A DNA stretch of 55,510 nucleotides from positions 1-55,510 of the forward strand of contig CAZCFJ010000002.1 of assembly GCA_964497945.1 (NCBI GenBank), given 5' to 3'. This DNA comes from an uncultured Gammaproteobacteria bacterium (lineage in GTDB: Bacteria > Patescibacteriota > Microgenomatia > UBA12405). The notes beneath the pieces were generated by a model. The model had not been told where the DNA came from. It saw only the letters and a list, made by a program, of their open reading frames with translations, and did not search any database. Both the position numbers and the translations under genes were made by a program. This document shows positions 9,081 to 50,704 of this stretch, piece after piece. Position 1 is the first letter of the stretch, and every line of letters begins with the position of its first letter.

Positions 9081-9123
9081 GCCGGCAGGTGATTGCGCAA
9101 GCAATATCTGCCGGTATTTTTTT
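9081..9123 (+). terminator. rho-independent terminator
   Basis: The stem is GCCGGCAG...CTGCCGG with an inner ATTGC/GCAAT helix, followed by TATTTTTTT. Confidence 0.75.
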
Positions 9124-9140
9124 GAAAAAATAAAAATTTA

Positions 9141-9149
9141 TGCTAAAAT
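9141..9149 (+). promoter_or_regulatory. extended -10 promoter element TGCTAAAAT for small-protein cassette 2
   Basis: TGnTAAAAT lies exactly 20 nt upstream of the CTGCG-N7-CGCAG inverted repeat at 9170-9186. Confidence 0.5.
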
Positions 9150-9169
9150 ATATCCTATAATTTATTTAT

Positions 9170-9186
9170 CTGCGACAAAGCCGCAG
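9170..9186 (+). promoter_or_regulatory. inverted repeat CTGCG ACAAAGC CGCAG (5'-leader hairpin or operator)
   Basis: Seen directly. It is a paralogue of the 8543-8556 element. Confidence 0.55.
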
Positions 9187-9261
9187 TTTAAACTATTAAA
9201 TAAATTAAACAAAAAGTTCTTTGACAATCGACGACAATATTTACTCTAATTAGGAGGGGGA

Positions 9262-9465
9262 GTGTCGTACATGAAAAAGTTCATATCGACTCTTTGGTAT
9301 CTTATAGCTGCACTAATGTTTGCTTTTGGAATCATTGGTTTAACCAATGAAGACATCCGACAAATAGTCATTTCAGCCGGAGTCACCCTCTTGTTCGTCG
9401 TCATCATCATTGGTGTAATTTGGTTCTTTGGAGGAATTTTTTCCAAACCAGCCAAATGGAGGTAA
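9262..9465 (+). CDS. small two-TM membrane protein
   Basis: ORF preceded by AGGAGGGGG (9252-9260). The track starts at GTG 9262, and ATG 9271 is an equally plausible start. Both halves are hydrophobic. TLWY and ISAGVTLL echo TLWF and ISAGAITVL in the 8619 protein. Confidence 0.55.
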   Translation: MSYMKKFISTLWYLIAALMFAFGIIGLTNEDIRQIVISAGVTLLFVVIIIGVIWFFGGIFSKPAKWR

Positions 9466-9468
9466 GAA

Positions 9469-9552
9469 ATGGATTTCATTTGGGCACCAATCGCCTTGAT
9501 TGTCGAAATACTTATTTTTTATTTGGCAATGAAGACAGCCAAAGCCAAATAA
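9469..9552 (+). CDS. 27-aa hydrophobic micro-ORF (MDFIWAPIALIVEILIFYLAMKTAKAK), possibly translationally coupled
   Basis: My own translation. GGAGG (9458-9462) lies 6 nt upstream of the ATG and overlaps the stop of the preceding ORF. The micro-ORF ends 8 nt before the terminator. It is below the length cut-off of the ORF track. Confidence 0.35.
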   Translation: MDFIWAPIALIVEILIFYLAMKTAKAK

Positions 9553-9560
9553 ACCAACAA

Positions 9561-9602
9561 CCGGCAGGTAATTGCACGAGCAATATCTGCCGGTTTTTCT
9601 TT
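9561..9602 (+). terminator. rho-independent terminator, paralogue of 9081-9123
   Basis: CCGGCAGGTAATTGCACGAGCAATATCTGCCGG followed by TTTTTCTTT. It differs from the first copy at one internal-loop base and in the apical loop. Confidence 0.75.
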
Positions 9603-9635
9603 ATCACTACTCAACTACTTTACTAATTAGCTAAT

Positions 9636-10934
9636 TTATCTTCCTACAGAAATATATTTAAAGCCCTTTTTCTTCATCTCTTTCGGTTCAAAAATATTTC
9701 TTCCATCAACTATATTTGGTAAATTCATTTTTGATTTTATTTTTTCCAAATCAACTACTTTAAATTCTGGCCATTCTGTCACGATTACCAAACAATCAGT
9801 CTTTTTAACTGATTCTTTCAAATTATCTTCATAAGTCACACTACTACCCAAAACTTTTTCTGCCTGTTTTTTGGCAATTGGATCAAAAACCTTAACAATT
9901 GCCCCTCTGTCCAAAAGTTGTTTAATTATTACCAAGGCTGGAGCCTCACGAACATCATCGGTATGAGGTTTAAAAGCCAATCCCCACAAAGTGATTGTTT
10001 TCCCATGTAAATCATCACCCAATAATCTCTGTATTTTCCCTAAAAGCGATTGTTTTTGGGCATGATTAGTTTCTTCTACTTCTTCCAATATTCCAAATCT
10101 AATTCCATTTTCCTGAGCAATTTGAATTAAACCCTTTACATCTTTAGGAAAGCAACTTCCACCATAACCCACTCCGGCATGCAAAAATGCTTTTTGACCA
10201 ATTCTTTTATCCAACATCATTCCTTGTGATACTTTTTCTACATCAGCTCCCAATTTCTCACATAAATTAGCAATTGAATTGATAAAAGATATTTCTGTCG
10301 CCAAAAAAGAATTAGAAGCATATTTAATCATCTCCGCCGTTTTAATATCGGTCAAAACCATATTTTCCGTCCCAAAATTACTATAAAGTTCACACATTAT
10401 CTTTTCCGCCTTATTTGAAACCGATCCAATCACCACCCTATCCGGATTCATAAAATCAACTATCGCCGTACCTTCCCTTAAAAACTCAGGATTAGAAACA
10501 ACATCAAAATCACCTTTATATTTTTCCGTAATAATCTTGGCTACTACATCACCTGTCCCAATCGGTACAGTTGATTTGTTAACAATCACTTTGTAACCAT
10601 TCATATTCTCTCCAATCGAATCTGCTGCCGACTTTACATACTCCAAATTAACGCTTCCATCTGGCATTGGCGGAGTTCCTACAGCAATAAAAATTATTTC
10701 TGATCCTTTAACTGCAGCCGAAACATCAGTTGTAAAACTTAATCTTTTTTGAGATACATTTTCTTCAACCAATTCTTCCAGTCCCTGTTCATAAATTGGA
10801 ATAATACCCTTGTTTAATCCCTTAATTTTTTCTTTATCAATATCTACCCCCACAACTTCATTTCCCATCTCTGCCAAACAAGTTCCAGTTACTAAACCAA
10901 CATAACCTACACCAATTACAGTTATTTTCTTCAT
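9636..10934 (-). CDS. ugd: UDP-glucose 6-dehydrogenase
   Basis: Contains KITVIGVGYVGLVTGTCLAEMG (NAD fold) and the catalytic GYGGSCFPKDV. Full length at 432 aa. Confidence 0.9.
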   Translation of the reverse strand: MKKITVIGVGYVGLVTGTCLAEMGNEVVGVDIDKEKIKGLNKGIIPIYEQGLEELVEENVSQKRLSFTTDVSAAVKGSEIIFIAVGTPPMPDGSVNLEYVKSAADSIGENMNGYKVIVNKSTVPIGTGDVVAKIITEKYKGDFDVVSNPEFLREGTAIVDFMNPDRVVIGSVSNKAEKIMCELYSNFGTENMVLTDIKTAEMIKYASNSFLATEISFINSIANLCEKLGADVEKVSQGMMLDKRIGQKAFLHAGVGYGGSCFPKDVKGLIQIAQENGIRFGILEEVEETNHAQKQSLLGKIQRLLGDDLHGKTITLWGLAFKPHTDDVREAPALVIIKQLLDRGAIVKVFDPIAKKQAEKVLGSSVTYEDNLKESVKKTDCLVIVTEWPEFKVVDLEKIKSKMNLPNIVDGRNIFEPKEMKKKGFKYISVGR

Positions 10935-36172: not shown

Positions 36173-37492
36173 ATGGCAGACAATCAAAACGATCTCGTCA
36201 GTAAAATCGTCAGTCTCTGTAAACGCAGAGGAATTATTTTTCAAAATTCTGAAATTTACGGTGGTGTTCAAGGTTTTTACGATTATGGTCCGGTCGGATC
36301 ACTCATGAAATTAAATTGGAAAAATTATTGGTGGCAAACAAATGTCATCAAACGTCGCGATGTTGTTGGTATTGATGGTTCTATCATTACTCACCCAACC
36401 GTTTGGCAAGCATCTGGTCACGTCAAAAATTTTGCCGATGTTATGGTTGAATGTAAAAAATGTCACAAACGATTTCGTCCAGACTTACTCGATGATCCGT
36501 CAAAATGTCCTGAATGTGGCGGAGAATTTACTAAGGGTCGAAAATACAATATATTATTTGAAACAGAAATCGGTGTCATTGAAGGCGAAAAACAACATGC
36601 CTATCTAAGAGGAGAGGCCTGCCAAACTATTTATTTGGATTTCAAAAATATAGTTGACTCTTGCCGCGTCAAAATCCCTTTCGGTATCGCTCAAATTGGG
36701 AAAGCTTTCCGCAATGAAATTACTCCAAAAAACTTCCTCTATCGCACTCGCGAATTTGAACAATGGGACATTCAATATTTTGTTCATCCCAGCCAAATGG
36801 ATAAGTGGTTTGAATATTGGAAAGAAAACCGTATGAACTGGTATAAATCATTATTTAATAACTCAGAAAGTTTACGTTTCCGCGAACATGCCAAAGACGA
36901 ATTAGCTTTTTATGCCAAAAAAGCATTTGACATCGAATACAACGCTCCTTGGGGTTGGGCTGAAATGGAAGGAATTCACTGGCGATCAGACTACGATTTA
37001 ACTCAACATTCCAAATTTAGCGGTCAAGATCTTTCCTATATTGATCCCGTCACTCACGAAAAATATCTCCCTTGGATTACTGAAACTTCTGGAGGAGTTG
37101 ATCGTAGTTTCTTTTTTATGCTTTTAGACGCTTACCGTGAAGAAACCACTTCTAGTGGAGAAGTTAGGACTTATCTTAAAGTTAATCCCAAAGTTGCTGC
37201 TTATAAAATGGCTGTTATTCCATTAGCCGCTAACAAACCAGAGTTAATTGATAAAGCCGAAAAAATTTTCAATCAACTAAATCAAAAATATTCCGTTGAT
37301 TGGGATGATAGTAGTAATATTGGGAAAAAATATCGCCGCCAAGACGAAATCGGTACGCCTTGGTGTTTAGTTGTCGACTATCAAACTTTAGAAGACAATA
37401 CTGTCTCTATTCGCGACCGAGACACTATGGAACAAATTCGTCTTAATGCTGACGAAATTGACAGTTGGTTAGAAAAAAGGTTAAATAACTAA
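36173..37492 (+). CDS. glyQS: glycine--tRNA ligase (alpha2 type)
   Basis: 439 aa. Contains IFQNSEIYGG and QIGKAFRNEITPKNFLYRTREFEQWDIQYF, plus a Cys-rich insertion CKKCHKRF...CPECGG. Confidence 0.95.
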   Translation: MADNQNDLVSKIVSLCKRRGIIFQNSEIYGGVQGFYDYGPVGSLMKLNWKNYWWQTNVIKRRDVVGIDGSIITHPTVWQASGHVKNFADVMVECKKCHKRFRPDLLDDPSKCPECGGEFTKGRKYNILFETEIGVIEGEKQHAYLRGEACQTIYLDFKNIVDSCRVKIPFGIAQIGKAFRNEITPKNFLYRTREFEQWDIQYFVHPSQMDKWFEYWKENRMNWYKSLFNNSESLRFREHAKDELAFYAKKAFDIEYNAPWGWAEMEGIHWRSDYDLTQHSKFSGQDLSYIDPVTHEKYLPWITETSGGVDRSFFFMLLDAYREETTSSGEVRTYLKVNPKVAAYKMAVIPLAANKPELIDKAEKIFNQLNQKYSVDWDDSSNIGKKYRRQDEIGTPWCLVVDYQTLEDNTVSIRDRDTMEQIRLNADEIDSWLEKRLNN

Positions 37493-37493
37493 T

Positions 37494-38195
37494 ATGAATA
37501 AACTAAAAATAATTTCATTATCATTAGTAGTTGTTTTTTCCTCCCTGTTTCTTTCTGCTTGTGGTAAAAAGAAAACTGAGACCAACAAATCTACTCCTAC
37601 CAAGGGCATTCAAAAAGAATTGGTTCTTTCTGAATCAGAAAAACCAATAATTTCCCTTATTCCCCGCGAGGACGGTCACGAATTAAAACTAAAAATTGAT
37701 AATATTCCTTCAAATATTAGTCAAATCGATTATGAACTTATTTATTCCGCTACCGAAAATGGTTTAACTATGGAAAAAGGTGTCGGCGATACTGTTAAAA
37801 TAACTTCAAAAAATATTGAAAAAGATCTTCTTTTAGGTACTTCTAGCTGCACCAATGGTTGTAAATATAAATATGACACCGGTGTTTCTGAAGGTACTCT
37901 TTCTTTAATTTTTTACACTAACGATAATCAAAGCGCTACTTACGAAACACCATTTATTTTAAAAACTTCAGCTGATATCAAAAAAGACGGCGGTCTAACT
38001 CTCAAAGGTCAAGATTTTTCCATTAAAGCTACCACTACTACCAAAAGTGATTATTTTATTGTCATCAAAAATTACCCTTCTTATTTTTCCGTCTTTTCTA
38101 ACAGCAAAGGTGCTGGAAAAATTACCTCCATCACTCCCACCACGGTTACCAAACAAGATATGACTTCTTTGGTTGGCAACTATACTACCAACTAA
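37494..38195 (+). CDS. lipoprotein of unknown function
   Basis: Signal peptide with the lipobox LFLSAC. Confidence 0.65.
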   Translation: MNKLKIISLSLVVVFSSLFLSACGKKKTETNKSTPTKGIQKELVLSESEKPIISLIPREDGHELKLKIDNIPSNISQIDYELIYSATENGLTMEKGVGDTVKITSKNIEKDLLLGTSSCTNGCKYKYDTGVSEGTLSLIFYTNDNQSATYETPFILKTSADIKKDGGLTLKGQDFSIKATTTTKSDYFIVIKNYPSYFSVFSNSKGAGKITSITPTTVTKQDMTSLVGNYTTN

Positions 38196-40986: not shown

Positions 40987-42273
40987 ATGCTACAAAAAAT
41001 AAAGAATTTGTTCTTTCATTTACCAAAAAGTATTTTTTATCAAGCCTACTATCATTTTCCCACCAAAAAACTTACTCTTATTGGTATTACTGGAACTGAT
41101 GGAAAAACTACTACTGCTACATTGGTCTATGAAACCCTAAAAAAAGCTGGCATTAATGCTGGTGTTATTACTACTATTAGTGCCAAATACGACGACCATG
41201 AAATTGACACTGGACTTCATATGACCAGTCCTGACCCTTCCGTTATTCAAAAAATATTTAAAACTATGGTTGACGCCGGGATAACTCATGTAGTTTGTGA
41301 AGTCACTGCTCATGCTCTTGATCAATATCGATTTGCTGGTTGTCATTTTGCTGTTTCTGTTATTACTAATACCTCTCATGAACACCTCGATTATTTTAAA
41401 AACATGGACCAATATATTCAAACCAAAGCTAAAATTTTTGATCAATCTGAAATTTGTATTCTTAACAAAGACGATCCATCATACGAAAAAATTATCAAAA
41501 CTTTCCCCAAAAAATTTTTAAGTTACAGTGTCGACAAAAAATCAGATTATCAAGCCACCAACATTATCATTAAATCAAATTCATTATCTTTCAATATTAA
41601 AAATAATTCTATTTTTACTGACAGTCCTTACCGTTACCAAATTTATAATATTCTCACCGCCTTTTCTATTATGGATCAGCTCCAAATTGATCAAAATTTT
41701 TTAATTGAAACTGTCAAAAATTTTCCTCTCACCAAAGGTCGTCGTGAAGAAGTTCCCAACCAGTTAGACATCAAAGCTATAGTTGATTTTGCTCACACCC
41801 CTAACGCTATTAAAAATACATTATCTTCACTTAAAGAAACCAATTCCGGCAAAATCATTGCTATTTTTGGCGCTACCGGTGGTCGTGATCAAAGCAAACG
41901 CCCTCAAATGGGATTAGTCGTCTCTCAATTAGCCGATATTGCCATTATTACTTCAGATGATACCCGCGACGAAGATATTCAAGACATCAATAAACAAATT
42001 ATCAGCGGCATCAAACCAGACTCTGTTTTAGTCGATACTACTGATTTTTCAGAAATTAAAAAAATTATTAAATCCAACAAAAACAAATTTATTTATTTCA
42101 ATATCCCCAACCGACAAGATGCTTTTAATCTAGCCATTCAATTATCACAACCAAAAGATACTATTATTGCTATGGGTAAAGGTCACGAGACCACCATTCT
42201 CCATGGCAAAACGGAATTTCCCTGGTCAGAAACCGAGGCTTTTCGTTCTGCTTTTAAACTCAAACAAAATTAA
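40987..42273 (+). CDS. murE: MurE-like Mur ligase lacking the N-terminal (UDP-binding) domain
   Basis: The P-loop GITGTDGKTTTA starts at about residue 33. Other matches are HVVCEVTAHALDQYR, TNTSHEHLDYF and ITSDDTRDED, which aligns to the MurE DNPR region. 428 aa. Confidence 0.7.
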   Translation: MLQKIKNLFFHLPKSIFYQAYYHFPTKKLTLIGITGTDGKTTTATLVYETLKKAGINAGVITTISAKYDDHEIDTGLHMTSPDPSVIQKIFKTMVDAGITHVVCEVTAHALDQYRFAGCHFAVSVITNTSHEHLDYFKNMDQYIQTKAKIFDQSEICILNKDDPSYEKIIKTFPKKFLSYSVDKKSDYQATNIIIKSNSLSFNIKNNSIFTDSPYRYQIYNILTAFSIMDQLQIDQNFLIETVKNFPLTKGRREEVPNQLDIKAIVDFAHTPNAIKNTLSSLKETNSGKIIAIFGATGGRDQSKRPQMGLVVSQLADIAIITSDDTRDEDIQDINKQIISGIKPDSVLVDTTDFSEIKKIIKSNKNKFIYFNIPNRQDAFNLAIQLSQPKDTIIAMGKGHETTILHGKTEFPWSETEAFRSAFKLKQN

Positions 42274-42274: not shown

Positions 42275-42874
42275 ATGACTCAATTTAATATTCAAAATCA
42301 ACTTTCGCCGGCAGAAAATTATCAATCAGGCCTTTTACCCCAACGCAACCAAATTAATTTTTGGTATCAAGATTCTAGTAGCCGTTCGAACCTATCCAAT
42401 TTTCAATTAAGTTCAGAAAATCGCCGGATTATTAACAAAACTCAGGAATTTACTTATCAACTTATTTCTCTAAAAGATTTTAATTACACTCCAAAAGTTC
42501 AGAAACAAATTTTTTCCTGGCTCAAACTGTTAGGATGGGATTTCCCCGTTAGTTCAGTTAAAACAATATTCACTAACCATATTTTTAATTATCTTTATAT
42601 TTGGAAAGATCAACAACAAAATACCGTTGCTTATTCAATCTGCTATTTTTCTAAAGAAATAAGTCATATCGCTTATGTTTTTTATGATCCCCAATATAGC
42701 CATGGTAATTTACCTATCAGATTAGTTCTTCAAACAGTTTCTGATAGTCATGATAGGGGATTAAAATATTGTTACCTTGGCCGTTTTTCTTCAGAAACTG
42801 GTTTTTACAAACGCAATATGCCCGGTTTTGAATATTTCGATTCTAAAAATAAACAATGGATTAAGTATCTTTAA
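42275..42874 (+). CDS. ATE_C/Bpt-like (arginyl/leucyl-tRNA--protein transferase C-terminal domain) homologue
   Basis: The start is set at ATG 42275. SSENRRIINK resembles SKNQRR. ISHIAYVFYDPQYSHGNLPIRLVLQ and GLKYCYLGRFSSETGFYKRNMPGFEYF resemble the SAVYTFFDP and YxYLGYW...KMxYKxxFxPxE blocks of the Bpt/ATE1 C-terminal domain. Confidence 0.55.
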   Translation: MTQFNIQNQLSPAENYQSGLLPQRNQINFWYQDSSSRSNLSNFQLSSENRRIINKTQEFTYQLISLKDFNYTPKVQKQIFSWLKLLGWDFPVSSVKTIFTNHIFNYLYIWKDQQQNTVAYSICYFSKEISHIAYVFYDPQYSHGNLPIRLVLQTVSDSHDRGLKYCYLGRFSSETGFYKRNMPGFEYFDSKNKQWIKYL

Positions 42875-42976: not shown

Positions 42977-44353
42977 ATGAATATTCATATTCTCGGTATT
43001 GCTGGCAGTATGACTGCCAATTTGGCTGTAGCTCTCAAAAAATTAGGCAACATTGTCACTGGTTCTGATCAGGAAAAAATTTTCCCTCCAGTCAGCACTA
43101 CTCTCAAAAAAGCCAATATTTCAATCAATTCAACTACTATCAATAAAAGTATTGATTTGGCCATTATTGGTTCTTCATATGGTTCTTTTGATAAAACTAA
43201 AGAAGAGTTTGAACAAATTAAAAAATTAAAAATTCCTTATATTTCCGCTACCGAATACATCGCTCAAAATTTAGTCAAATCAAATTCAGTTGTTGTTGCT
43301 GGCAGTTTTGGCAAAACCACTATCACTAGCCTAATTAGTTGGATTTTTTCTCAATCTAACAAAAAACCTAGTTTTATGTTTGGCGGTAACCCAAAAAACA
43401 AATTCGACTCTTTTAAGTTTTCTAATTCCAATTGGTCAATTGTTGAAGGTGATGAATCCATCCATGGTCTCGATAAACAAGCCAAATTTTTATATTATCG
43501 ACCCAAATATTTAATTATCACCAGTGCCGATTGGGAACATAAAGATTGTTATCCAAATGAAAAATCTAATTTTGATGCCTTCAAAAAATTAGTCCAACAA
43601 TTGCCTTCAGATGGAATTTTAATTCTCAATAGCCAAAGCCAAACTTCCCTAAAATTAGCCAAATATTCTCCCTGCCAAGTTATTACATATAATTCTCCCA
43701 ATTCCAATTATTTCATTGAAAATATCAATCGCCAAAACGAAATCACCAACCTCTTAATTCACACTCCAAACGGATTAATAAAAACTACTACTAGTCTTAT
43801 CGGTCAATTCAATTTTGAAAATATTTTAGCTGCTTTTAGCCTTTGTGACAGTTTAAATCTAAGCCATTATTCTATTTCTAAATCAATTATGTCTTATAAG
43901 GGTGTTAAACGACGTTTAGAATTAATTGACAAACGAAATAATATTCTTTTCTTTGATGACTTTGCTCAATCCAATCAAAGAATTATATCGGCATTATCGG
44001 CATTAAAACAGCATTTCCCTAATAAAAACATAAAAGTATTATTCCAACCTCACGCCTCATTTAGTCAATACAAAAACAGTCTTTGTGAACTCAAAAATTC
44101 TTTTGATTTAGCTAACGAAATCGTTCTCACCCAATTAAAATTCAACCCTAGTATTAGCAAAAAAGATCGTAATACTGCCAAAGATTTTCGCAATTGTCTT
44201 GGTTCAAAACTCATTTATCTCCCTCTCAAAAAGCAAATAATAAAGTATTATAAAGATAGTCTGATGCCAAATGATATTTTAATTTATATGAGTTCTGGTG
44301 GTCTTGAAGGTAATCGTATCTTCAAATCTATTATCAACAGTTTCAAAAAATAA
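42977..44353 (+). CDS. Mur ligase of the MurC/Mpl family, with an Mpl-like N-terminus
   Basis: IHILGIAGSMTANLAVALKKLGNIVTGSDQEKIFPPVSTTL matches the Mpl pattern IHILGICG...VTGSDxxxYPPMSTxL. Also present are IPYISATEY and VVAGSFGKTT. Confidence 0.7.
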   Translation: MNIHILGIAGSMTANLAVALKKLGNIVTGSDQEKIFPPVSTTLKKANISINSTTINKSIDLAIIGSSYGSFDKTKEEFEQIKKLKIPYISATEYIAQNLVKSNSVVVAGSFGKTTITSLISWIFSQSNKKPSFMFGGNPKNKFDSFKFSNSNWSIVEGDESIHGLDKQAKFLYYRPKYLIITSADWEHKDCYPNEKSNFDAFKKLVQQLPSDGILILNSQSQTSLKLAKYSPCQVITYNSPNSNYFIENINRQNEITNLLIHTPNGLIKTTTSLIGQFNFENILAAFSLCDSLNLSHYSISKSIMSYKGVKRRLELIDKRNNILFFDDFAQSNQRIISALSALKQHFPNKNIKVLFQPHASFSQYKNSLCELKNSFDLANEIVLTQLKFNPSISKKDRNTAKDFRNCLGSKLIYLPLKKQIIKYYKDSLMPNDILIYMSSGGLEGNRIFKSIINSFKK

Positions 44354-44420: not shown

Positions 44421-45749
44421 ATGTCTCGATATATTATTACTGGTGGTAATCAACTTCATGGCGAAGTTTCTATTCGCGGTGCCAAAAATGCTAGCTACAA
44501 ACAAATCATTGCCGCTCTTTTAAGTGACCAAACCACCCAATTAACCAATGTTCCCAAAATTTCTGACGTCAAAATCACCGAAAGTATTGCCAAAAGTGTT
44601 GGCGCTAACATTGAATATTGTGGCGAACATTGTTTAGAAATTAGTGCCAAAAAAATTACCAATTCTACTGTTCCTATTGGTACTGGCGAAAAATCGCGCA
44701 CTTCATTTATGTTTTCTGCCCCTCTTTTAGTTCGTACTGGTGACGCTATTGTCCCTATTCCTGGTGGCGACAAATTAGGTATCAGACCTCTTGATCGTCT
44801 CTTTGATTGTTTCCAACAAATGGGGATTTCTACTGAAATTTCTGACAACCAAATTAAATTTCACACCAACAAAATTAAACCAGTTCATTATGTTTTTAAT
44901 AAGCCTAGTCATACCGTTACTGAAACTATTCTTATGACTGCCGCTTTCGCCGATGGTCAAACTGTTTTAGATAATGCCGCTCAAGAACCAGAAATTGACG
45001 ATCTTATACTTATGCTCAACAGTATGGGTGCCAAAATTATTCGTAATCCCCAAGACCAGAAACAAATTATTATTGATGGCATCAACTCACTCAATGGCAC
45101 TCATCATCAAGTAATTTGTGACCGTAATGAAATCGTTACTTTTGCTTGTGCTGCTTTGGCTACCAAGGGTTCAATTAATATTTTAAGAAGTGACTCTAAA
45201 ACAGTTCAAACGTTTTTAGATACTATCGAAAAAATGGGAGCTAAAGTTGTTCCAGGTAAAGATGAAATTACCATTTCTTGGATTCAACCATTAAAAAATA
45301 TTGATATTGTTACCGGACCAGAACCAGAATTTATGACCGACTGGCAGGCAATTTTCTCTGTCTTATTAACCCAAACAGTTGGTTGTAGTTCCATTATCGA
45401 AAGGGTTTATCCTTCACGTTTTCAACACATTGAAAATCTCCAAAAAATGGGTGTTAAAGCTGTTTTGTTTAACCCAGAAATTGATAATCCGGAAACCTTT
45501 TATCAATTTAATCCAGAAAGTGACCGACCAGAATTTTTCCATGGCGTAAAAATCTACGGACCAACAAAATTAAAACCAGCTAATTTCACCATTAATGATC
45601 TTCGTGCTGGTGCTTCGACTACTTTGGCTGCTCTTACTGCTGAAGGCATCTCAATTATTGATGGAGTTGAATTTATTGAAAGAGGTTACGAAAAGCTAGC
45701 CGAAAGACTTTGCTATTTAGGTGCTAACATAGAATATATAAAAACCTAA
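44421..45749 (+). CDS. murA: UDP-N-acetylglucosamine 1-carboxyvinyltransferase (Asp variant at the catalytic Cys position)
   Basis: Contains IRGAKNA and IPGGDKLGIRPLD, where canonical MurA has GGC. 442 aa. Confidence 0.95.
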   Translation: MSRYIITGGNQLHGEVSIRGAKNASYKQIIAALLSDQTTQLTNVPKISDVKITESIAKSVGANIEYCGEHCLEISAKKITNSTVPIGTGEKSRTSFMFSAPLLVRTGDAIVPIPGGDKLGIRPLDRLFDCFQQMGISTEISDNQIKFHTNKIKPVHYVFNKPSHTVTETILMTAAFADGQTVLDNAAQEPEIDDLILMLNSMGAKIIRNPQDQKQIIIDGINSLNGTHHQVICDRNEIVTFACAALATKGSINILRSDSKTVQTFLDTIEKMGAKVVPGKDEITISWIQPLKNIDIVTGPEPEFMTDWQAIFSVLLTQTVGCSSIIERVYPSRFQHIENLQKMGVKAVLFNPEIDNPETFYQFNPESDRPEFFHGVKIYGPTKLKPANFTINDLRAGASTTLAALTAEGISIIDGVEFIERGYEKLAERLCYLGANIEYIKT

Positions 45750-45753: not shown

Positions 45754-46788
45754 ATGATTCACCTTTATCTTGGCTTATTACTTTTTTCCTTTCTTATTAC
45801 GAGTCTTTTAGTTGTTCCCTTTATTAATCTACTATATAAGCTCAAATTCCAGCGTCAGAGACAAAACACTACTGACTTTCAGAACAAAAAAACCCCTATT
45901 TTCGACAAATTTCACAATATTAAAACCGGCACCCCGGTTGGTGGAGGACTTTTAATTATTCTTTCTGTCTGTATTCTTTTTTTAATTCTTTTCCCAGCTA
46001 TAAAAATTTCCAACATTTTTATTTCCACTAATTATCAAATTGTTCACGAGTTAGGTATTGTCTTTTTCACCTTCATTAGTTTTGGACTTCTTGGCTTATA
46101 CGACGATATTTACAAGTTTTTTGGTTTTAAACGCACTGGTTTTTTTGGCCTCAAAATGATTCATAAACTCATCCTTCAATTAATTCTTTCTGTCATAATT
46201 TCTTGTTTAATTTATTTCACCCTCAAAGTTGATTTTATTTATATTCCGTTTCTTGGTGCTATTCATTTAGGCTGGCTTTTTATTCCCATTTCTACCATCA
46301 TAATCACCGGCTTCGCCAACTTTTTTAATATCACTGATGGTCTTGATGGTTTATCATGTGGACTTTTAATGATTGCCTTATTTGCCTTTTGGTTTTTATC
46401 CAGCAGTTCCCTTGATACCCCCATATCGATGTTCCTTTGTTTATGGATTGGTAGTCTAATTGCTTTTCTTTATTTCAATGTTTATCCGGCGCGTATCTGG
46501 TTAGGAGACGTTGGAGCTTTATCTTTTGGAGCCACATTTGCCGTTATTGCCTTAATATTAGGTAAAATTGTTCCATTAATTATCGTCGGGTCACCTTTCA
46601 TTATTGAAGGTTTAAGTAGTGCTATTCAAATTTTTAGCAAAAAGTATTTTGGCAAAAAAGTTTTCCCTGCCGCTCCATTCCACCTCACCCTTCAAAGCAT
46701 TGGTTGGGAAGAACCTAAAATTGTCACTCGTGCTTGGCTGGCTGGAATTATTTTAGCTATTTTCGGACTATGGTTAGGACTAAATTAG
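45754..46788 (+). CDS. mraY: phospho-N-acetylmuramoyl-pentapeptide transferase
   Basis: Contains FFNITDGLDGLSCGL and YPARIWLGDVGALSFGA. About 10 TM segments. Confidence 0.9.
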   Translation: MIHLYLGLLLFSFLITSLLVVPFINLLYKLKFQRQRQNTTDFQNKKTPIFDKFHNIKTGTPVGGGLLIILSVCILFLILFPAIKISNIFISTNYQIVHELGIVFFTFISFGLLGLYDDIYKFFGFKRTGFFGLKMIHKLILQLILSVIISCLIYFTLKVDFIYIPFLGAIHLGWLFIPISTIIITGFANFFNITDGLDGLSCGLLMIALFAFWFLSSSSLDTPISMFLCLWIGSLIAFLYFNVYPARIWLGDVGALSFGATFAVIALILGKIVPLIIVGSPFIIEGLSSAIQIFSKKYFGKKVFPAAPFHLTLQSIGWEEPKIVTRAWLAGIILAIFGLWLGLN

Positions 46789-47345
46789 ATCAACTCAAAC
46801 AGGAAATCGAACATTATATCGATCTCCCATATATGATCAATATTATTCGTGATGGAAAAATAATCAAGCCACGTTTTATGGGTGCCAAAGGTCACTGGAA
46901 AGATATTGATAAAGAAACTAAACGCCTAGCCAAAGAAAATCACATTGATCTGAAAAAACTTTCCTCACAACGTTTATACAACTTTCAAAAAAAACATAAA
47001 ATCGGCATTGACTGCTCTGGATTAGCTTCTCAATTATTAATTTACTACGGTAAATTATCGGGCAAAAAAATAACCATTAATCCTCGCCACACTTCAGCTG
47101 AGATGCTTACTTCAGAGCCTTTATCCACCAAAATTGACGATCCTGATAATATCCGAACCGGTGATCTTATCCGTCAAAAAAATGGTCACCATGTATTATT
47201 TATCATCGAAAAGAAAGGTAAAACAATTGATTATGTCGACAGTTCTTTCTGGGGTAGAGGAGTCAAATACGGTCAAGTTGATCTAGCTGACCCAATGTTC
47301 GATAATCAGGGAATTTACCGTCTTAAATTACTTTTCCTCAATTAA
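46770..47345 (+). CDS. NlpC/P60 (C40) family protein without a signal peptide
   Basis: The start is set at ATG 46770, a 19-nt overlap with mraY. The catalytic Cys motif is KIGIDCSGLASQLL and the His motif is GDLIRQKNGHHVLF. The N-terminus is hydrophilic. Confidence 0.6.
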   Translation: MVRTKLDQLKQEIEHYIDLPYMINIIRDGKIIKPRFMGAKGHWKDIDKETKRLAKENHIDLKKLSSQRLYNFQKKHKIGIDCSGLASQLLIYYGKLSGKKITINPRHTSAEMLTSEPLSTKIDDPDNIRTGDLIRQKNGHHVLFIIEKKGKTIDYVDSSFWGRGVKYGQVDLADPMFDNQGIYRLKLLFLN

Positions 47346-47492
47346 TTCCCGGTATTCCAAAGGATCAATTGATAGAATTTCTACTTCAGTTCCACACTCC
47401 CCACATTCCAAAATATCGCCAATCATCATCCCTTCGGTTGGTTTAATTTCAGAACTACAATCAGGACAAATAATATTAGTTGTTTGTGTCAT
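47328..47492 (-). CDS. LysW-like zinc-ribbon protein (amino-group carrier protein family-like), 54 aa
   Basis: My own translation is MTQTTNIICPDCSSEIKPTEGMMIGDILECGECGTEVEILSIDPLEYRELIEEK. It matches the LysW pattern CPxC-N16/17-CxxCGxExEvxxxDPL with an acidic tail. It is not in the ORF track because it is under 60 aa. Confidence 0.6.
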   Translation of the reverse strand: MTQTTNIICPDCSSEIKPTEGMMIGDILECGECGTEVEILSIDPLEYRELIEEK

Positions 47493-47534
47493 AAGGCTAA
47501 AGAATATATAATTAAGCTTAAGTTAACCCATTAT

Positions 47535-48356
47535 ATGACAAACACTCCTTTAGTCCAATTAGACAATTTTTATCTCAAACGGGAAGATCAAAATATTACC
47601 GGCTCAGCCAAAGATAGAGCAATTCCATTTCAAATTGAAAATCTTAAAAAAAATGGTTTTACCCAGGCAGTTATTTCTAGCACCGGCAATGCTGCTATTT
47701 CTGCCGCCCACTTTTGTCATCAAGAAAATATTAAATTGACAATTTTTTTGTCACCCCACATTGCCCCAGAAAAATTAAATTTGCTCAAAAAATACGACCA
47801 CGAAATTATTCTTTCACATCAACCAATCAGTGATGCTGTTAAATTTTCAAAATCCCTCCATGCCTATCTTTTACGTCAATCTACTGATCCCTCAAGTCTA
47901 ATCGGTTATCAAACTATTGCCCAGGAGTTAGCAGAACAACTCCCTCAAATTACCAGCATTTTTATTCCTGTTGGCAGTGGGACTACTCTTCTGGGTATTT
48001 CTCAAAAACTTCCTAAAAATGTCAAAATTTTTGGAGCCCAATCGGCTGCTAATCCTACTGTTAGTAAAATTTTCGACCCTAATTTTACCCCGGAAAATCG
48101 ATTAATTACCGATGCTCTTTCGGTTAAGTTTTTACCCAATAAAGACAAAGTTATTAATGCCATCAAAAATAGTTCCGGTTCTTGTCTAACCATTCAAAAC
48201 GAAAATATTGTCACTGCTGATTCTTATTTAAAATCAAAAGACATTATAACCTCTCTCGAAGGTGCTTTATCCTTTGCTGCCTACCAAAAAGCTCAAAAAA
48301 ATAATCTTAACATTGGTCAATATCCCATTATTTTATTAACCGGAGCCAAACGTTAA
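47535..48356 (+). CDS. PLP-dependent enzyme, fold type II (PALP; threonine synthase/cysteine synthase-like)
   Basis: The start is set at ATG 47535 (MTNTPLVQL). The Lys motif is ITGSAKDR. SSTGNAA and the Gly loop PVGSGTTLLG are also present. Confidence 0.7.
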   Translation: MTNTPLVQLDNFYLKREDQNITGSAKDRAIPFQIENLKKNGFTQAVISSTGNAAISAAHFCHQENIKLTIFLSPHIAPEKLNLLKKYDHEIILSHQPISDAVKFSKSLHAYLLRQSTDPSSLIGYQTIAQELAEQLPQITSIFIPVGSGTTLLGISQKLPKNVKIFGAQSAANPTVSKIFDPNFTPENRLITDALSVKFLPNKDKVINAIKNSSGSCLTIQNENIVTADSYLKSKDIITSLEGALSFAAYQKAQKNNLNIGQYPIILLTGAKR

Positions 48357-48357
48357 T

Positions 48358-49524
48358 ATGAACCTCTTTGATCAAATTAACCAGTCAAATTATGTTTTTT
48401 ATTTTTTAGTCGTTGATAATTTTTTAGACATAACCTTACCTCAACTAAAAAATTTTCATCTCATTTATTCTTCTACCCCAAAACAAAAAGATTATTTAGA
48501 TTCACAGAATATCCCTTATTTTATTTCTCCAACCAACGATGTTCAAAATAGTGGCAAACTTTTAGCCGATTCTTCAGTCCAAAATTATATAAATTCCACC
48601 TCTAACAATCGACAAATAGTTATTGTTCCTTTTAAACCATCTGCTAAGATTGAATTTATTTGCCGTCAAAACAATTGGATTTGTGCTGCTGTTGATCATC
48701 AACTTAACCGTTTTCTCGAAGATAAAAATGAACTCACCCTTTTCTGTCAAAAAAATAATTTACCCATTATTTCATCGGTTGTAGATTTATTTAATCAAAC
48801 AAATTTTGCTAAATACCAACAACAATTCCAAACCAACCAACTAGTTACCCAAACCCATTTTGGTTGGGCTGGTAAAAGTACCTTTTCTGCCAATAGTTGG
48901 GAAGAAATAAAAAACAGTATTCCTTCAGAAACCAAAGTAAAATTTTCTCCATTTTTAAACGGTTATTCATTATTAAATAATTGCTGTCTAACACAAACCG
49001 GTCTCATTCAAAGTCCTCTGGCTTTACAATACACTGGCCTACCCGAATTTACCTCTAACCCCTTTACCACCGTTGGTCGCCAATGGCCTTGTTTAGCTCC
49101 AGAAGGAATTCAAAATCAAATTAAACAAATCACTACTGACTTTGCCAAAATAATTCAATCATTGTCTTATAAAGGCTTTTTTGGTTTAGATTTTTTAGTT
49201 TCTAATAATCAAGTTTATTTACTAGAATGCAATCCTCGCCTTACTGCCTCTTTTGCTTTTTATACTCAAATTGAAACTAATCAAAACCTTAATCCATTAT
49301 TTCTTTTCCACTTATCTCAATTTATTAACCTACCTTCAATTCCAACAGCTTCAGAATCCCAATTATTAATTGACTCGAGCAAAATTATTGGTTCTGAAAT
49401 CACTCTCAAAAATCAAGACAGTCAAACTATCAAAAAATATCACGATTTTACCGCTTTTTCTCAAAGTCTAGACCCCATTAATATTCCCCAAAATATTGTT
49501 AACCTGCTCCATGAGAAAGGATAA
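48358..49524 (+). CDS. ATP-grasp family ligase
   Basis: Contains GFFGLDFLVSNNQVYLLECNPRLT. 388 aa, starting 2 nt after the PALP gene stop. Confidence 0.65.
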   Translation: MNLFDQINQSNYVFYFLVVDNFLDITLPQLKNFHLIYSSTPKQKDYLDSQNIPYFISPTNDVQNSGKLLADSSVQNYINSTSNNRQIVIVPFKPSAKIEFICRQNNWICAAVDHQLNRFLEDKNELTLFCQKNNLPIISSVVDLFNQTNFAKYQQQFQTNQLVTQTHFGWAGKSTFSANSWEEIKNSIPSETKVKFSPFLNGYSLLNNCCLTQTGLIQSPLALQYTGLPEFTSNPFTTVGRQWPCLAPEGIQNQIKQITTDFAKIIQSLSYKGFFGLDFLVSNNQVYLLECNPRLTASFAFYTQIETNQNLNPLFLFHLSQFINLPSIPTASESQLLIDSSKIIGSEITLKNQDSQTIKKYHDFTAFSQSLDPINIPQNIVNLLHEKG

Positions 49525-50704
49525 ATCACCTTTAATCAGTCTAGTTTTTTTTCTAATCGGAGTCGGTTTTACTTTTATCTCCATCTCTTCTCTCACTGAG
49601 GCCAATAATACCGCCGGTGACAAATTTTATTTTCTTAAAAAACAGGGATTTTGGATTTTAGTCAGCTTAATCGCCCTTTTTATTGCCTCTAAAATAAAAA
49701 TAGAAATAATCAAAAAAATATCATCCCTAATCTATTTTGGATCGATTATTGGATTAATATTAGTTCTAATCCCTGGATTTAGTAATCAAACTTTAGGTGC
49801 CCATAGATGGCTTAATTTAGGAATTTTTAGTTTTCAACCGTCAGAACTATTTAAATTTAGTTCAATTATTTATTTTGCTATCATTTTTTCTCAGGAATCA
49901 AAACGCAACCTTACTAATCTAGTTTTTCATTTAAGTATCCCCTTTGTTCTAATTATTTTAGAACCAAATTTAAGCACTGCCATTCTTACTTCGGCCATAA
50001 TTATTTCTATGTATTATCTTGCTGGAGGCAAAATTATGCCCCTTTTTATATTTTGCGCCAGTCTAATTAGTCTTTGCTTTATTTTAGTTATTAGCTCACC
50101 CTACCGTTCCGCCCGACTTCAAACACTCATTAATCCCGAGTCCAATGGGGACAGCACTTCATACCACAGTAATCAAATTGTTTTATCTATCTCTTCTGGC
50201 GGTTTATTTGGCAAAGGTTTTGCTAATTCTGACCAAAAATATCGTTTTCTACCAAAAATTTCCACTGATTCAATTTTAGCCATAATAGGGGAGGAAATGG
50301 GATTTTTTGGTGTTCTCATTGTCCTTCTAATTTATGTTTTTTTGATCTCTTACTTAATTAAAATATCTACCCTCATAAAAAATGACCAATTTGCTTCACT
50401 TTTAATTTCTGGCGTTGCTTGTTGGATTGCCTATCAATCTCTAATTAATATTTCAGCTATCGCCAACATTATCCCCTTAACTGGGGTACCTTTACCTTTT
50501 GTTTCTTACGGCGGATCATCTCTTTTAACTTTAATGACATCAATTGGTTTAGTTCGCAATCTCGAAAAAAGACACAGTTTGTTGCTATACTCTGATAATG
50601 ATTCCAATCAAAAAAAGGATTCTCATCACCGGAACCCATCTTACTCCGGCCGTCGAACTAATTCGCCAACTTCAACAAGACCAAAAAGTCGATTGGCACA
50701 TTAG
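49496..50704 (+). CDS. ftsW: SEDS-family peptidoglycan polymerase FtsW
   Basis: Contains FQPSELFKF and PLPFVSYGGSSLL. ATG 49511 is an alternative start. The 3' end runs 107 nt into murG. Confidence 0.85.
   Translation: MLTCSMRKDKSPLISLVFFLIGVGFTFISISSLTEANNTAGDKFYFLKKQGFWILVSLIALFIASKIKIEIIKKISSLIYFGSIIGLILVLIPGFSNQTLGAHRWLNLGIFSFQPSELFKFSSIIYFAIIFSQESKRNLTNLVFHLSIPFVLIILEPNLSTAILTSAIIISMYYLAGGKIMPLFIFCASLISLCFILVISSPYRSARLQTLINPESNGDSTSYHSNQIVLSISSGGLFGKGFANSDQKYRFLPKISTDSILAIIGEEMGFFGVLIVLLIYVFLISYLIKISTLIKNDQFASLLISGVACWIAYQSLINISAIANIIPLTGVPLPFVSYGGSSLLTLMTSIGLVRNLEKRHSLLLYSDNDSNQKKDSHHRNPSYSGRRTNSPTSTRPKSRLAH

What the first reader, a model, noticed from the sequence alone, without database searches (positions are those of the whole stretch)
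42275..42874. ATE_C/Bpt-like aminoacyl-tRNA transferase homologue between murE and the Mpl-like ligase
This 199-aa protein carries blocks resembling the catalytic C-terminal domain of arginyl/leucyl-tRNA--protein transferases. The blocks are SSENRR, AYVFYDP...LPIRLVLQ and YCYLGR...FYKRNMPGFEYF. It lacks the Cys-rich N-terminal domain of those enzymes. ATE/Bpt enzymes share the GNAT-type fold of the FemXAB/MurM family, which uses aminoacyl-tRNA to add cross-bridge residues to peptidoglycan precursors. That relationship is established knowledge. Its position, 1 nt after the murE stop, suggests a Fem-like role carried out by a different family.
Basis: partly seen in the sequence, partly recalled or inferred. 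Interest (0 to 1): 0.72.

Follow-up and report, generated by a model that had tools for sequence, protein, structure and literature searches.

The report
tRNA-dependent transferase in cell-wall operon
This small gene encodes a stripped-down relative of the enzymes that use charged tRNA to add an amino acid to proteins, and across hundreds of ultra-small (CPR) bacteria it is locked into the operon that builds cell-wall precursors, so it probably adds an amino acid to the wall peptide by a route not described before.

Summary
A 199-aa ORF (42275-42874, +) starts 1 nt after the murE stop and is a real, conserved gene with more than 550 close homologues. It is a Cys-less, single-domain member of the ATE/Bpt superfamily. 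Pfam ATE_C is the top hit, just below threshold, and 51 of 56 relatives hit it. The AlphaFold model (pLDDT 90) matches ATE1 best, then MprF, FemX and Sba18, which are all aminoacyl-tRNA transferases. The catalytic Tyr-Lys dyad (Y178-K179) and the basic tRNA-binding helix (R50, R51, K55) are kept. The Zn-finger cysteines and the Arg that reads acidic protein N-termini are lost.

Relatives fall into five subfamilies, and the cell-wall context is conserved in all:
- Microgenomates: MurE'-X-MurC/Mpl-like ligase (27/27 and 20/21 loci).
- Parcubacteria: MraY-X-ligase (74/75 and 63/63 loci), or ligase-X alone.
- A non-CPR lineage: ATP-grasp-alanine racemase-X (21/25 loci).

Two independent X::ligase fusions exist. 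No MurD lies in any of these clusters.

X is most likely a tRNA-dependent aminoacyl transferase acting on a peptidoglycan precursor peptide. Whether it adds a Fem-like side branch or builds the peptide's N-terminus for the Mpl-like ligase is unresolved. I found no literature on this.

The parts
42275..42874 (+). X: 199-aa Cys-less single-domain ATE/Bpt-superfamily protein, a putative aminoacyl-tRNA transferase
   Evidence: ORF and translation. Pfam ATE_C and NCBIfam arginyltransferase hits. 556 close homologues. AF2 model pLDDT 89.9. Foldseek top hits ATE1, MprF, FemX and Sba18.
42413..42439 (+). Residues 47-55 (SENRRIINK): predicted basic helix with invariant R50, R51 and K55. It is the putative counterpart of the tRNA-binding alpha3 helix of ATE1, FemX and aaPGS.
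   Evidence: Helix H47-55 in the model. Invariant columns. The klAte1 basic alpha3 patch is essential and is a hallmark of aa-tRNA transferases (PMC9351520). The equivalence is inferred from position in the alignment.
42806..42811 (+). Y178-K179, the catalytic dyad equivalent to ATE1 Y303-K304 and FemX F304-K305
   Evidence: Invariant in all subfamilies and in canonical Bpt. The profile alignment places the family's YK on scAte1 YK at 303-304. K304A and Y303F mutants of klAte1 are inactive (PMC9351520).
40987..42273 (+). MurE' : MurE-type ligase (DAP-type signature DDTR) that lacks N-terminal domain 1. Its stop lies 1 nt before the X start.
   Evidence: NCBIfam MurE models match residues 18-424 to model positions 93-483 of 486. 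PDB MurE hits begin at about residue 94-138 of the chains. Directly upstream of X in 27/27 b-type loci, mostly with a 4-nt overlap. Motif alignment.
42977..44353 (+). MurC/Mpl-like ligase (MurC'), the most constant partner of X
   Evidence: NCBIfam murC 235 bits and mpl 185 bits, both below their cut-offs. Best PDB hit is PaMpl 3hn7. It has the Mpl-type GSD..PPxST, DKxxKF loop and C-terminal SSGG motifs but the MurC-type QPH motif. Downstream of X in 63/63 Parcubacteria loci and 20/21 Microgenomates loci. Upstream of X in d-type loci. Fused to X in P0122 and L032.
44421..45749 (+). MurA
   Evidence: Pfam EPSP_synthase, E=8.5e-69.
45754..46788 (+). MraY. It lies directly upstream of X in Parcubacteria.
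   Evidence: Pfam Glycos_transf_4. MraY is upstream of X in 74/75 loci.
46770..47345 (+). Cytoplasmic NlpC/P60-like protein (DCSG and GHH motifs, no signal peptide). It is part of the conserved module.
   Evidence: Weak Pfam NLPC_P60 hit, E=0.02. The Parcubacterial orthologue scores 3.6e-4. It co-occurs with X in both CPR superphyla.
47328..47492 (-). 54-aa LysW-like Zn-ribbon protein
   Evidence: Pfam Zn_ribbon_LysW, 38.4 bits against a GA of 27. Also present in L001.
47535..48356 (+). PALP (fold-type II PLP enzyme, threonine-synthase/cysteine-synthase-like). It is part of the conserved module.
   Evidence: Pfam PALP. NCBIfam and PDB hits. Present in 61 of 79 Parcubacteria loci, directly after the ligase.
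48358..49524 (+). ATP-grasp ligase of unknown specificity. It is part of the conserved module and sits in the canonical murD slot.
   Evidence: Pfam ATP-grasp_3. NCBIfam. Present in 63 of 79 Parcubacteria loci. Only NlpC-like, PALP and ATP-grasp lie between MraY and FtsW.

Best explanation
X is a stand-alone aminoacyl-tRNA-dependent aminoacyl transferase of the ATE/Bpt superfamily. It has lost the protein-substrate apparatus (the Zn finger and the acidic-N-terminus Arg) and works in the cytoplasmic phase of peptidoglycan precursor synthesis.

Inferred mechanism:
- The basic helix (R50, R51, K55) docks the acceptor end of a charged tRNA.
- An uncharged pocket (about I132, L150, T154, C166) holds a small or neutral aminoacyl group, such as Ala, Gly or Ser.
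- Y178 and K179 stabilise the tetrahedral intermediate while a free amino group of the precursor peptide attacks the aminoacyl ester.

My preferred acceptor is a side-chain or branch amino group of the nucleotide-linked stem peptide. That could be the diamino acid put in by the upstream MurE', or a residue added by the module's ATP-grasp ligase. This would be a Fem-like branch-building step performed by a different family.

What is shown: the homology, the fold, retention of the catalytic signature, and the conserved cell-wall operon context. What is inferred: tRNA use, donor identity and acceptor identity.
For: Fold and family:
- Foldseek hits are, in order, ATE1, MprF/aaPGS, FemX and Sba18, all aa-tRNA transferases.
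- ATE_C is the top Pfam hit in 51/56 relatives.

Catalytic signature:
- Y178-K179 is invariant and aligns with ATE1 Y303-K304 (PMC9351520).
- A basic helix sits at the alpha3 position.

Context:
- MurE'-X-ligase in Microgenomates: 27/27 loci upstream and 20/21 downstream, mostly with overlapping stop and start codons.
- MraY-X-ligase-PALP in Parcubacteria: 74/75 and 63/63 loci.
- A ligase-X pair standing alone outside any dcw cluster.
- An ATP-grasp-alanine racemase-X triad in a non-CPR lineage, 21/25 loci.
- Two independent X::ligase fusions.
- No terminator between murE', X and the ligase.

Support for a branch role: the recurrent pairing with an ATP-grasp ligase plus a PLP enzyme or racemase resembles the known D-Asp ligase (ATP-grasp) plus racemase cross-bridge systems of enterococci (own knowledge). 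MurE' installs the residue that carries the free amine immediately before X in gene order.
Against: - There is no biochemical evidence. The donor and acceptor are guesses.
- Sequence similarity to ATE_C is weak for the window protein itself, at 23.9 bits against a GA of 25.
- A Fem-type step on UDP-MurNAc-pentapeptide is not consecutive with MurC. It therefore does not by itself explain why the MurC/Mpl-like ligase is the most constant neighbour and the fusion partner.
- DAP-type walls (MurE' has the DAP-type Arg) rarely carry tRNA-built bridges.
- The pocket mapping rests on a low-scoring alignment.
- Most synteny evidence comes from within CPR, where gene order is inherited. The independent rearrangements are few, about four arrangements plus two fusions.
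Confidence: 0.45

Rival explanations
1. X builds the N-terminus of the stem peptide off the nucleotide, bypassing MurD. It transfers L-Ala (or Gly/Ser) from tRNA to the alpha-amino group of free D-Glu or of gamma-D-Glu-diamino acid. The Mpl-like ligase then attaches the resulting di- or tripeptide to UDP-MurNAc. In Microgenomates the domain-1-less MurE' could make gamma-D-Glu-DAP first, so gene order (MurE'-X-ligase) would equal reaction order.
For: - The ligase is X's constant neighbour in four subfamilies, sits in an isolated ligase-X pair, and is fused to X twice. That is expected for consecutive steps.
- The ligase has Mpl-specific features and PaMpl is its best PDB hit.
- Every cytoplasmic step except MurD is encoded in 25 or more Microgenomates dcw clusters, and there is never a fourth Mur ligase.
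- No MurD lies in the 55-kb window or in the 10 kb beyond it.
- ATE/Bpt enzymes naturally acylate the alpha-amine of an acidic residue (PMC9351520).
- MurE' lacks the UDP-binding domain.
- tRNA-dependent acylation of free amino-acid-like acceptors has precedent in DhpH-C and PacB (own knowledge) and in Sba18, which is among the fold hits.
Against: - MurD may simply be encoded elsewhere. Whole genomes could not be searched.
- The MurF of L005 also lacks its N-terminal domain, so truncation may be general CPR streamlining.
- The Arg that binds the acidic group in ATE1 (R80) is not conserved in X.
- The ligase scores higher with the MurC model than with the Mpl model and keeps the MurC-type QPH motif.
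- Fusions of non-consecutive Mur enzymes, such as MurC-Ddl, are known.
- The non-CPR lineage pairs X with Alr and an ATP-grasp, not with a ligase.
- The ATP-grasp in the murD slot could itself be the MurD substitute.
Confidence: 0.25
2. X is an ordinary Bpt-type N-degron enzyme that adds Leu or Arg to the N-termini of proteins destined for degradation. Its place in the cell-wall cluster is an inherited accident.
For: - Its closest sequence families are bacterial arginyl/leucyl transferases.
- Automatic annotations call it arginyl-tRNA-protein transferase or N-end rule transferase.
- The catalytic dyad is kept.
Against: - It lacks all four Zn-finger cysteines and the acid-recognising Arg that define the ATE/Bpt acceptor site (PMC9351520).
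- The cell-wall context is kept through at least four different gene arrangements, two fusions to a Mur ligase, and a non-CPR lineage.
- Scores against the Bpt equivalog models are about 10% of the cut-offs.
Confidence: 0.07
3. X is not tRNA-dependent. It is either a GNAT acyl-CoA transferase that N-acylates a wall precursor, or a non-catalytic partner of the Mur ligases.
For: - Weak hits to GNAT acetyltransferase families: Acetyltransf_6 in 24/56 relatives and Acetyltransf_1 in 9/56.
- The top sequence hits in the PDB are small acetyltransferases.
- NCBI names some relatives 'GNAT family N-acetyltransferase'.
Against: - Structure search ranks only aa-tRNA transferases at the top.
- The invariant YK dyad and the basic helix are hallmarks of tRNA-dependent members and are absent from other GNATs (PMC9351520).
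- Strong conservation of catalytic-site residues argues against a non-catalytic role.
Confidence: 0.08

Closest known systems
ATE1 / Bpt (arginyl- or leucyl-tRNA-protein transferases, Pfam ATE_N + ATE_C)
   Same: This is the closest family by sequence and fold. Shared features are the GNAT core, the 'S-x-S-x-R-R' basic helix, the YLG motif and the catalytic Tyr-Lys dyad.
   Different: X has no Zn-finger cysteines, no 'GFRRSG' acid-binding Arg and no C-terminal domain. It is half the size of Bpt and 40% the size of ATE1. Its context is a peptidoglycan operon, not an N-degron system.
FemX / FemABX / MurM (Pfam FemAB), tRNA-dependent peptidoglycan branch transferases
   Same: Same superfold and the same Lys-based catalytic device. 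It is a structural hit at E=1.5e-5. The proposed chemistry is the same, and both are linked to cell-wall genes.
   Different: There is no FemAB sequence homology. X has one GNAT-like domain rather than two, and no coiled coil. X occurs in CPR and one non-CPR lineage and is tied to a MurC/Mpl-like ligase. Its acceptor is unknown.
MprF aminoacyl-phosphatidylglycerol synthase domain (DUF2156)
   Same: Second-best group of structural matches (E about 5e-7 to 1e-5). It is tRNA-dependent and modifies the envelope.
   Different: X has no membrane flippase domain and no lipid-synthesis neighbours. MprF has a tandem GNAT architecture.
tRNA-dependent peptide-bond-forming enzymes of natural-product pathways (Sba18; PacB and DhpH-C from own knowledge)
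   Same: They use aa-tRNA to acylate small-molecule or peptide amines. Sba18 is a fold hit. They give precedent for a free amino acid or peptide acceptor.
   Different: They belong to the Fem-like lineage, lie in secondary-metabolite clusters and are not widespread housekeeping genes.
Aslfm D-aspartate ligase (ATP-grasp) plus aspartate racemase of Enterococcus faecium (own knowledge)
   Same: An ATP-grasp ligase plus an amino-acid-converting enzyme are encoded together to build a peptidoglycan side branch. The X modules likewise contain an ATP-grasp plus a PLP enzyme or alanine racemase.
   Different: That system has no tRNA-dependent component. The ATP-grasp proteins are not demonstrably orthologous.

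Membership tests
ATE/Bpt superfamily (Pfam ATE_C core) | Significant match to the ATE_C profile and an ATE1-like GNAT fold | tested here: met
   ATE_C is the top hit at E=6.6e-5, 1 bit below GA for the window protein. 51 of 56 relatives hit it, best 3e-10. Foldseek top hits are ATE1 at E=1.7e-9 with TMq 0.67-0.70.
ATE/Bpt superfamily (Pfam ATE_C core) | Catalytic Tyr-Lys dyad (klAte1 Y303-K304) | tested here: met
   Y178-K179 is invariant across all subfamilies and canonical Bpt, and aligns with scAte1 YK 303-304.
Canonical ATE1/Bpt N-degron transferases | ATE_N domain with a C4 Zn finger (klAte1 C23, C26, C95, C96) | tested here: not met
   No ATE_N hit in 56 relatives. X has only C123 and C166. 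The CC position reads SS, and the CxxC segment is absent.
Canonical ATE1/Bpt N-degron transferases | Basic residue that recognises the acidic N-terminal residue (klAte1 R80, motif GFRRSG) | tested here: not met
   The motif is GLLPQR, GFVFTR or GFLPYS in the X subfamilies. This is alignment-based.
Canonical ATE1/Bpt N-degron transferases | Transfers Arg or Leu to protein N-termini and works with ClpS/Clp or the ubiquitin machinery | not testable with these tools
   This needs biochemistry and whole-genome gene content.
Aminoacyl-tRNA-dependent GNAT transferases in general (ATE, Fem, aaPGS, L/F) | Positively charged alpha3 helix that binds the tRNA acceptor end | tested here: met
   Predicted helix 47-55 (SENRRIINK) carries invariant R50, R51 and K55 at the position of the canonical 'SRSQKR'. 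Its role is inferred, and tRNA binding itself was not tested.
FemXAB / MurM family (Pfam FemAB) | Sequence membership and a two-GNAT-domain architecture | tested here: not met
   No FemAB hit at E<=1. X is a single 199-aa domain. FemX is only a distant fold match with TMt 0.35.
FemXAB / MurM family (Pfam FemAB) | Uses aa-tRNA to acylate the residue-3 side chain of a peptidoglycan precursor | not testable with these tools
   Only context supports it.
L/F-transferase (Aat, Pfam Leu_Phe_trans) | Match to the Leu_Phe_trans profile | tested here: not met
   It is not among the Pfam hits at E<=1.
GNAT acyl-CoA N-acyltransferases | GNAT fold with an acyl-CoA binding motif A (Q/R-x-x-G-x-G/A) | tested here: inconclusive
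   The fold is met. There are weak hits to Acetyltransf_6, _1 and _7. The motif region reads 'NLPIRLVLQ' or 'SLGxxMML', as in ATE1 ('SLGKLSAL'), and is not the CoA motif.

The most novel reading that the evidence does not exclude
In Microgenomates and Parcubacteria the first peptide bond(s) of the peptidoglycan stem peptide are not made by MurC and MurD. X would use Ala- (or Gly-) tRNA to acylate D-Glu or gamma-D-Glu-diamino acid. A MurC/Mpl-hybrid ligase would then load the preformed peptide onto UDP-MurNAc. This would be a tRNA-dependent, MurD-less route to the universal wall precursor in a radiation that makes up a large share of bacterial diversity.
Probability: 0.2. Interest if true: 0.92.

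Novelty: new variant of a known kind. Interest (0 to 1): 0.74.

Why it matters
tRNA-dependent amino-acid addition to peptidoglycan is known only for the Fem/MurM family of Gram-positive bacteria. The ATE/Bpt family is known only as a protein-modifying family in N-degron pathways.

A third arrangement seems to exist here. An ATE-type enzyme, stripped of its protein-recognition parts, is hard-wired into the wall-precursor operon of hundreds of CPR species and is fused to a Mur ligase in two lineages. If confirmed, three things would follow:
- It would show a new recruitment of tRNA into cell-wall synthesis.
- It would predict an unusual wall chemistry for organisms whose walls have never been analysed.
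- It would correct a widespread automatic annotation ('arginyl-tRNA-protein transferase').

Combined with the consistent absence of murD from these otherwise complete clusters, it also gives a concrete, testable entry into how reduced-genome epibionts make or salvage their wall peptide.

Tried and rejected
- The longer TTG-start ORF (42167) was rejected, because homologues start at the ATG.
- A single-sequence PDB search found only a chance hit. The profile PDB search gave only marginal ATE1 and GNAT hits.
- The search for related loci with the broad alignments A2 and A3 failed because there was no conserved 7-10 column block. I used the subfamily alignments A5 and A8 instead.
- Long 'X' ORFs in L014 and L050 are alternative-frame artefacts over mraY.
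- ORFs lying between X and the ligase in Parcubacteria are unrelated insertions, not a conserved extra gene.
- The ~300-aa protein upstream of the d-type ligase-X pair gave one weak hit to Cu-oxidase_4 (the YfiH/PgeF family; that equation is from my own knowledge) at E=0.007. Neither the orthologue, NCBIfam nor the PDB search supported it, so I dropped it.
- The non-CPR GARS-like ATP-grasp is not detectably related to the CPR ATP-grasp.
- PDB sequence searches for the ATP-grasp and the NlpC-like protein were uninformative.
- There are no tRNA genes in the window.
- One look-up failed because of a different start codon.
- Literature searches found no paper on this family in cell-wall synthesis or on MurD absence in CPR.
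- Whole-genome presence or absence of MurD, MurC or FemAB could not be tested.
Full report
**The feature.** The window is AT-rich (32% GC) and comes from a 91.9-kb metagenomic contig. Its relatives are named Candidatus Shapirobacteria, in the Microgenomates branch of CPR/Patescibacteria. The ORF 42275-42874 (+) encodes 199 aa. Its ATG lies 1 nt after the TAA of the upstream murE-type gene. No terminator-like site separates murE', X and the next ligase.

**It is a real, conserved gene of the ATE/Bpt superfamily.**
- Pfam's best hit is ATE_C (E=6.6e-5, 23.9 bits against a gathering score of 25). Next is the Fem-related GNAT family Acetyltransf_6.
- NCBIfam's bacterial arginyltransferase models match residues 35-174 (E=4.9e-7), far below their equivalog cut-offs.
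- 556 close homologues of 196-211 aa exist. The 120 listed are 65-100% identical to X. About 70 columns are invariant in a 27-sequence alignment.
- A profile search of 1.84 billion representative proteins found only 210 related clusters. I group the full-length ones into an a-type (Shapirobacteria, ~200 aa), a b-type (~262 aa, 'MKLFFSE...YxFPYQVW'), a c-type (~215-240 aa) and a d-type (~250 aa).
- A fifth group, the v-type, appeared later in non-CPR contigs.
- ATE_C is hit by 51 of 56 diverse members, and ATE_N by none.
- The AlphaFold2 model is confident (pLDDT 89.9, pTM 0.86).
- Its Foldseek matches are, in order, human, yeast and K. lactis ATE1 (E=1.7e-9 to 1e-6, TMq 0.62-0.70), MprF/aminoacyl-PG synthases, W. 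viridescens FemX and the tRNA-dependent peptide synthase Sba18. Every top match uses aminoacyl-tRNA as its donor.

**What is kept and what is lost.** I aligned X with canonical Bpt-type sequences recovered at the edge of the profile search (P0258, P0268, P0270).
- G19, R37, R51, Y167, G169, Y178, K179 and W195 are invariant across everything.
- The family's YK aligns with S. cerevisiae Ate1 Y303-K304. In K. lactis Ate1, K304A and Y303F are inactive. K304 is the counterpart of FemX K305, which stabilises the tetrahedral intermediate (PMC9351520).
- The SSENRR block lies in a predicted helix (47-55) at the place of the canonical 'SRSQKR'. This matches the basic alpha3 helix, which is essential in Ate1 and shared by Fem, aaPGS and L/F transferases but absent from other GNATs.
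- The four Zn-finger cysteines are lost: CxxC is deleted and CC reads SS. So is the 'GFRRSG' arginine (R80) that reads the acidic N-terminal residue of protein substrates.
However, residues ~16-55 of X are still the C-terminal half of ATE_N.
- By a low-scoring alignment, the four residues that form the Arg-binding pocket of Ate1 (S255, S273, E277, Y289; A, A, Q, L in Bpt) map to I132, L150, T154 and C166. This is an uncharged pocket, so Arg is an unlikely donor.

**Context in the window.** The order is as follows:
- GlyRS, a lipoprotein, RsmH, FtsL, FtsI
- MurE', X, the MurC/Mpl-like ligase
- MurA, MraY
- an NlpC/P60-like protein, a LysW-like Zn ribbon on the minus strand, PALP, ATP-grasp
- FtsW, MurG, FtsQ(?), FtsA, FtsZ

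MurE' matches MurE models only from position ~93 onward, so it lacks the UDP-binding domain 1. It keeps a DAP-type Arg in 'DDTR'. The downstream ligase is intermediate between MurC and Mpl:
- NCBIfam scores murC 235 bits and mpl 185 bits, both below their cut-offs.
- The best PDB hit is P. arcticus Mpl, 3hn7.
- It has the Mpl-type 'GSD..PPxST', the Mpl-specific 'DKxxKF' loop and the C-terminal 'SSGG'. It also has the MurC-type 'QPH' motif.

Only two Mur ligases occur in the 55-kb window. None occurs in the next 10 kb.

**Comparative genomics.**

| Group | Arrangement | Support |
|---|---|---|
| a-type (Shapirobacteria) | Same order as the window | |
| b-type (other Microgenomates) | MurE'-X-ligase | MurE' directly upstream in 27/27 loci, usually with a 4-nt overlap; ligase directly downstream in 20/21 |
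| c-type (Parcubacteria, at least 587 stretches in GTDB species representatives) | Self-contained operon ATP-grasp-(NlpC-like)-MraY-X-ligase-PALP | MraY upstream in 74/75 loci; ligase downstream in 63/63 |
| d-type (Parcubacteria) | Ligase-X pair with overlapping or 3-nt-spaced genes, among unrelated genes outside any dcw cluster | Three loci from two related arrangements |
| d-type (a Yanofskybacteria contig pair) | An unknown 444-aa protein upstream instead | |
| v-type (non-CPR, GC 43-67%, one MAG labelled Verrucomicrobia) | Triad of GARS/PurD-like ATP-grasp, alanine racemase and X | 21/25 loci with Alr upstream; once right behind FtsW-MurG-MurB-Ddl-FtsA-FtsZ |

- In a Dojkabacteria contig with a scattered dcw cluster, the MurE'-X pair persists.
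- Two independent fusions join X to the ligase. P0122 (645 aa) is a-type with a Pro/Ser-rich linker. L032:386-2440 (685 aa) is c-type.
- A third fusion joins X to a PPDK_N/PEP-utiliser module (P0180).
- The same gene set (X, MurC/Mpl-like ligase, MraY, NlpC-like, PALP, ATP-grasp) is thus kept in two CPR superphyla in different orders.

**A striking by-product: no MurD.** The b-type clusters encode MraZ, RsmH, FtsI, MurE', X, the ligase, MurB, MurA, (Ddl), MurF, MraY, NlpC-like, PALP, ATP-grasp, FtsW and MurG without gaps. There is never a fourth Mur ligase.
- Every cytoplasmic step except MurD is present in these clusters.
- The canonical murD slot between mraY and ftsW holds NlpC-like, PALP and ATP-grasp.
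- I could not search whole genomes, so MurD may lie elsewhere.
- One organism (L007) has both a full-length MurE (motif VDPG, no Arg) and a truncated MurE' (EDPR) next to X. The MurF of L005 is also N-terminally truncated.

**Interpretation.** The general conclusion is that X is an aminoacyl-tRNA-dependent transferase working on a cytoplasmic peptidoglycan precursor peptide. I hold this with about 0.75-0.8 confidence. It rests on fold, catalytic signature, loss of the protein-substrate determinants, and repeated, rearranged but persistent cell-wall synteny including fusions.

The acceptor is unresolved.
- **Fem-like branch step (0.45).** I favour this reading. X follows the ligase that installs the diamino acid. 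It recurs with an ATP-grasp ligase plus a PLP enzyme or racemase, which resembles the D-Asp ligase/racemase branch systems of enterococci (own knowledge). Fem enzymes are the established precedent.
- **N-terminal assembly (0.25).** X would acylate D-Glu or gamma-D-Glu-diamino acid, and the Mpl-like ligase would load the peptide onto UDP-MurNAc. This explains better the constant pairing and fusion with that ligase, its Mpl-like features, the missing murD, the domain-1-less MurE', and the ATE family's natural preference for the alpha-amine of an acidic residue. Against it, R80 is not conserved, MurD absence is unproven, and fusions of non-consecutive Mur enzymes are known.
- **Ordinary N-degron role (0.07).** The failed membership features and the context argue against it.
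- **Acyl-CoA GNAT role or non-catalytic partner (0.08).** The tRNA-transferase hallmarks argue against it.

**Novelty.** Databases auto-name these proteins 'arginyl-tRNA-protein transferase', 'N-end rule aminoacyl transferase', 'GNAT N-acetyltransferase' or 'hypothetical'. Eight full-text searches found nothing on an ATE-type enzyme in peptidoglycan synthesis or on this CPR gene module. I rate it a new variant of a known kind. tRNA-dependent aminoacylation in wall synthesis is known, but not by this family, not in this architecture, and not coupled to a MurC/Mpl-type ligase.

Noticed in passing
window 40987-42273; L005:13464-14669; L007:4436-5923 and 6739-8004: The MurE next to X lacks N-terminal domain 1 (UDP binding) in all Microgenomates loci. 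The MurF of L005 is also N-truncated. One organism (L007) has both a full-length MurE (motif VDPG, no Arg) and a truncated MurE' (EDPR) beside X.
   Followed up: partly
window 45754-50704; L095-L127, L162: No murD lies in any of the otherwise complete dcw clusters that contain X. The canonical murD slot between mraY and ftsW is filled by an NlpC/P60-like protein, a PALP enzyme and an ATP-grasp ligase. Whether MurD exists elsewhere in these genomes could not be checked.
   Followed up: partly
window 47328-47492 (-): A 54-aa LysW-like Zn-ribbon protein (Pfam 38.4 bits against a GA of 27; acidic C-terminal tail ...ELIEEK) lies between the NlpC-like gene and PALP/ATP-grasp. This hints at an amino-group-carrier-protein type pathway. 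It is also present in L001.
   Followed up: partly
window 42977-44353: The ligase after X is a MurC/Mpl hybrid. It has Mpl-type N-terminal and DKxxKF-loop motifs and a C-terminal SSGG, has the MurC-type QPH motif, and falls below both the NCBIfam murC and mpl cut-offs. The same holds for its orthologues in b-, c- and d-type loci.
   Followed up: partly
window 36173-38195; L001, L003, L005, L094-L123: Glycyl-tRNA synthetase and a conserved lipoprotein of unknown function head the dcw cluster in all a- and b-type Microgenomates loci. This may be coincidental, or a hint at Gly-tRNA as the donor.
   Followed up: no
L093, L128-L173 (non-CPR contigs, GC 43-67%): A conserved triad is present: a divergent GARS/PurD-like ATP-grasp (425 aa), alanine racemase and an X homologue (268 aa). 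In L152 it sits directly after FtsW-MurG-MurB-Ddl-FtsA-FtsZ.
   Followed up: partly
P0180 (809 aa, from the representative search): An X homologue is fused to a PPDK_N (ATP-grasp-like) domain plus a PEP-utiliser mobile domain. This is a different fusion partner from the Mur ligase.
   Followed up: no
L084:6638-8050: A c-type X carries a ~120-aa C-terminal extension of unknown nature, not seen in other loci.
   Followed up: no
window 1222-10934: A block of glycosyltransferase genes (GT2, GT4, DUF2304, two large unannotated proteins) and a UDP-glucose/GDP-mannose dehydrogenase lie on the minus strand. This is probably a surface polysaccharide locus.
   Followed up: no
L091:16240-17591 and L092:14639-15990: A bAvd plus reverse-transcriptase pair (like a diversity-generating retroelement) lies a few kb from the d-type X gene in a Yanofskybacteria contig.
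   Followed up: no
L089:15100-16098 (contig beyond the window end): A second FtsW/RodA-family gene follows IleRS just downstream of the dcw cluster.
   Followed up: no
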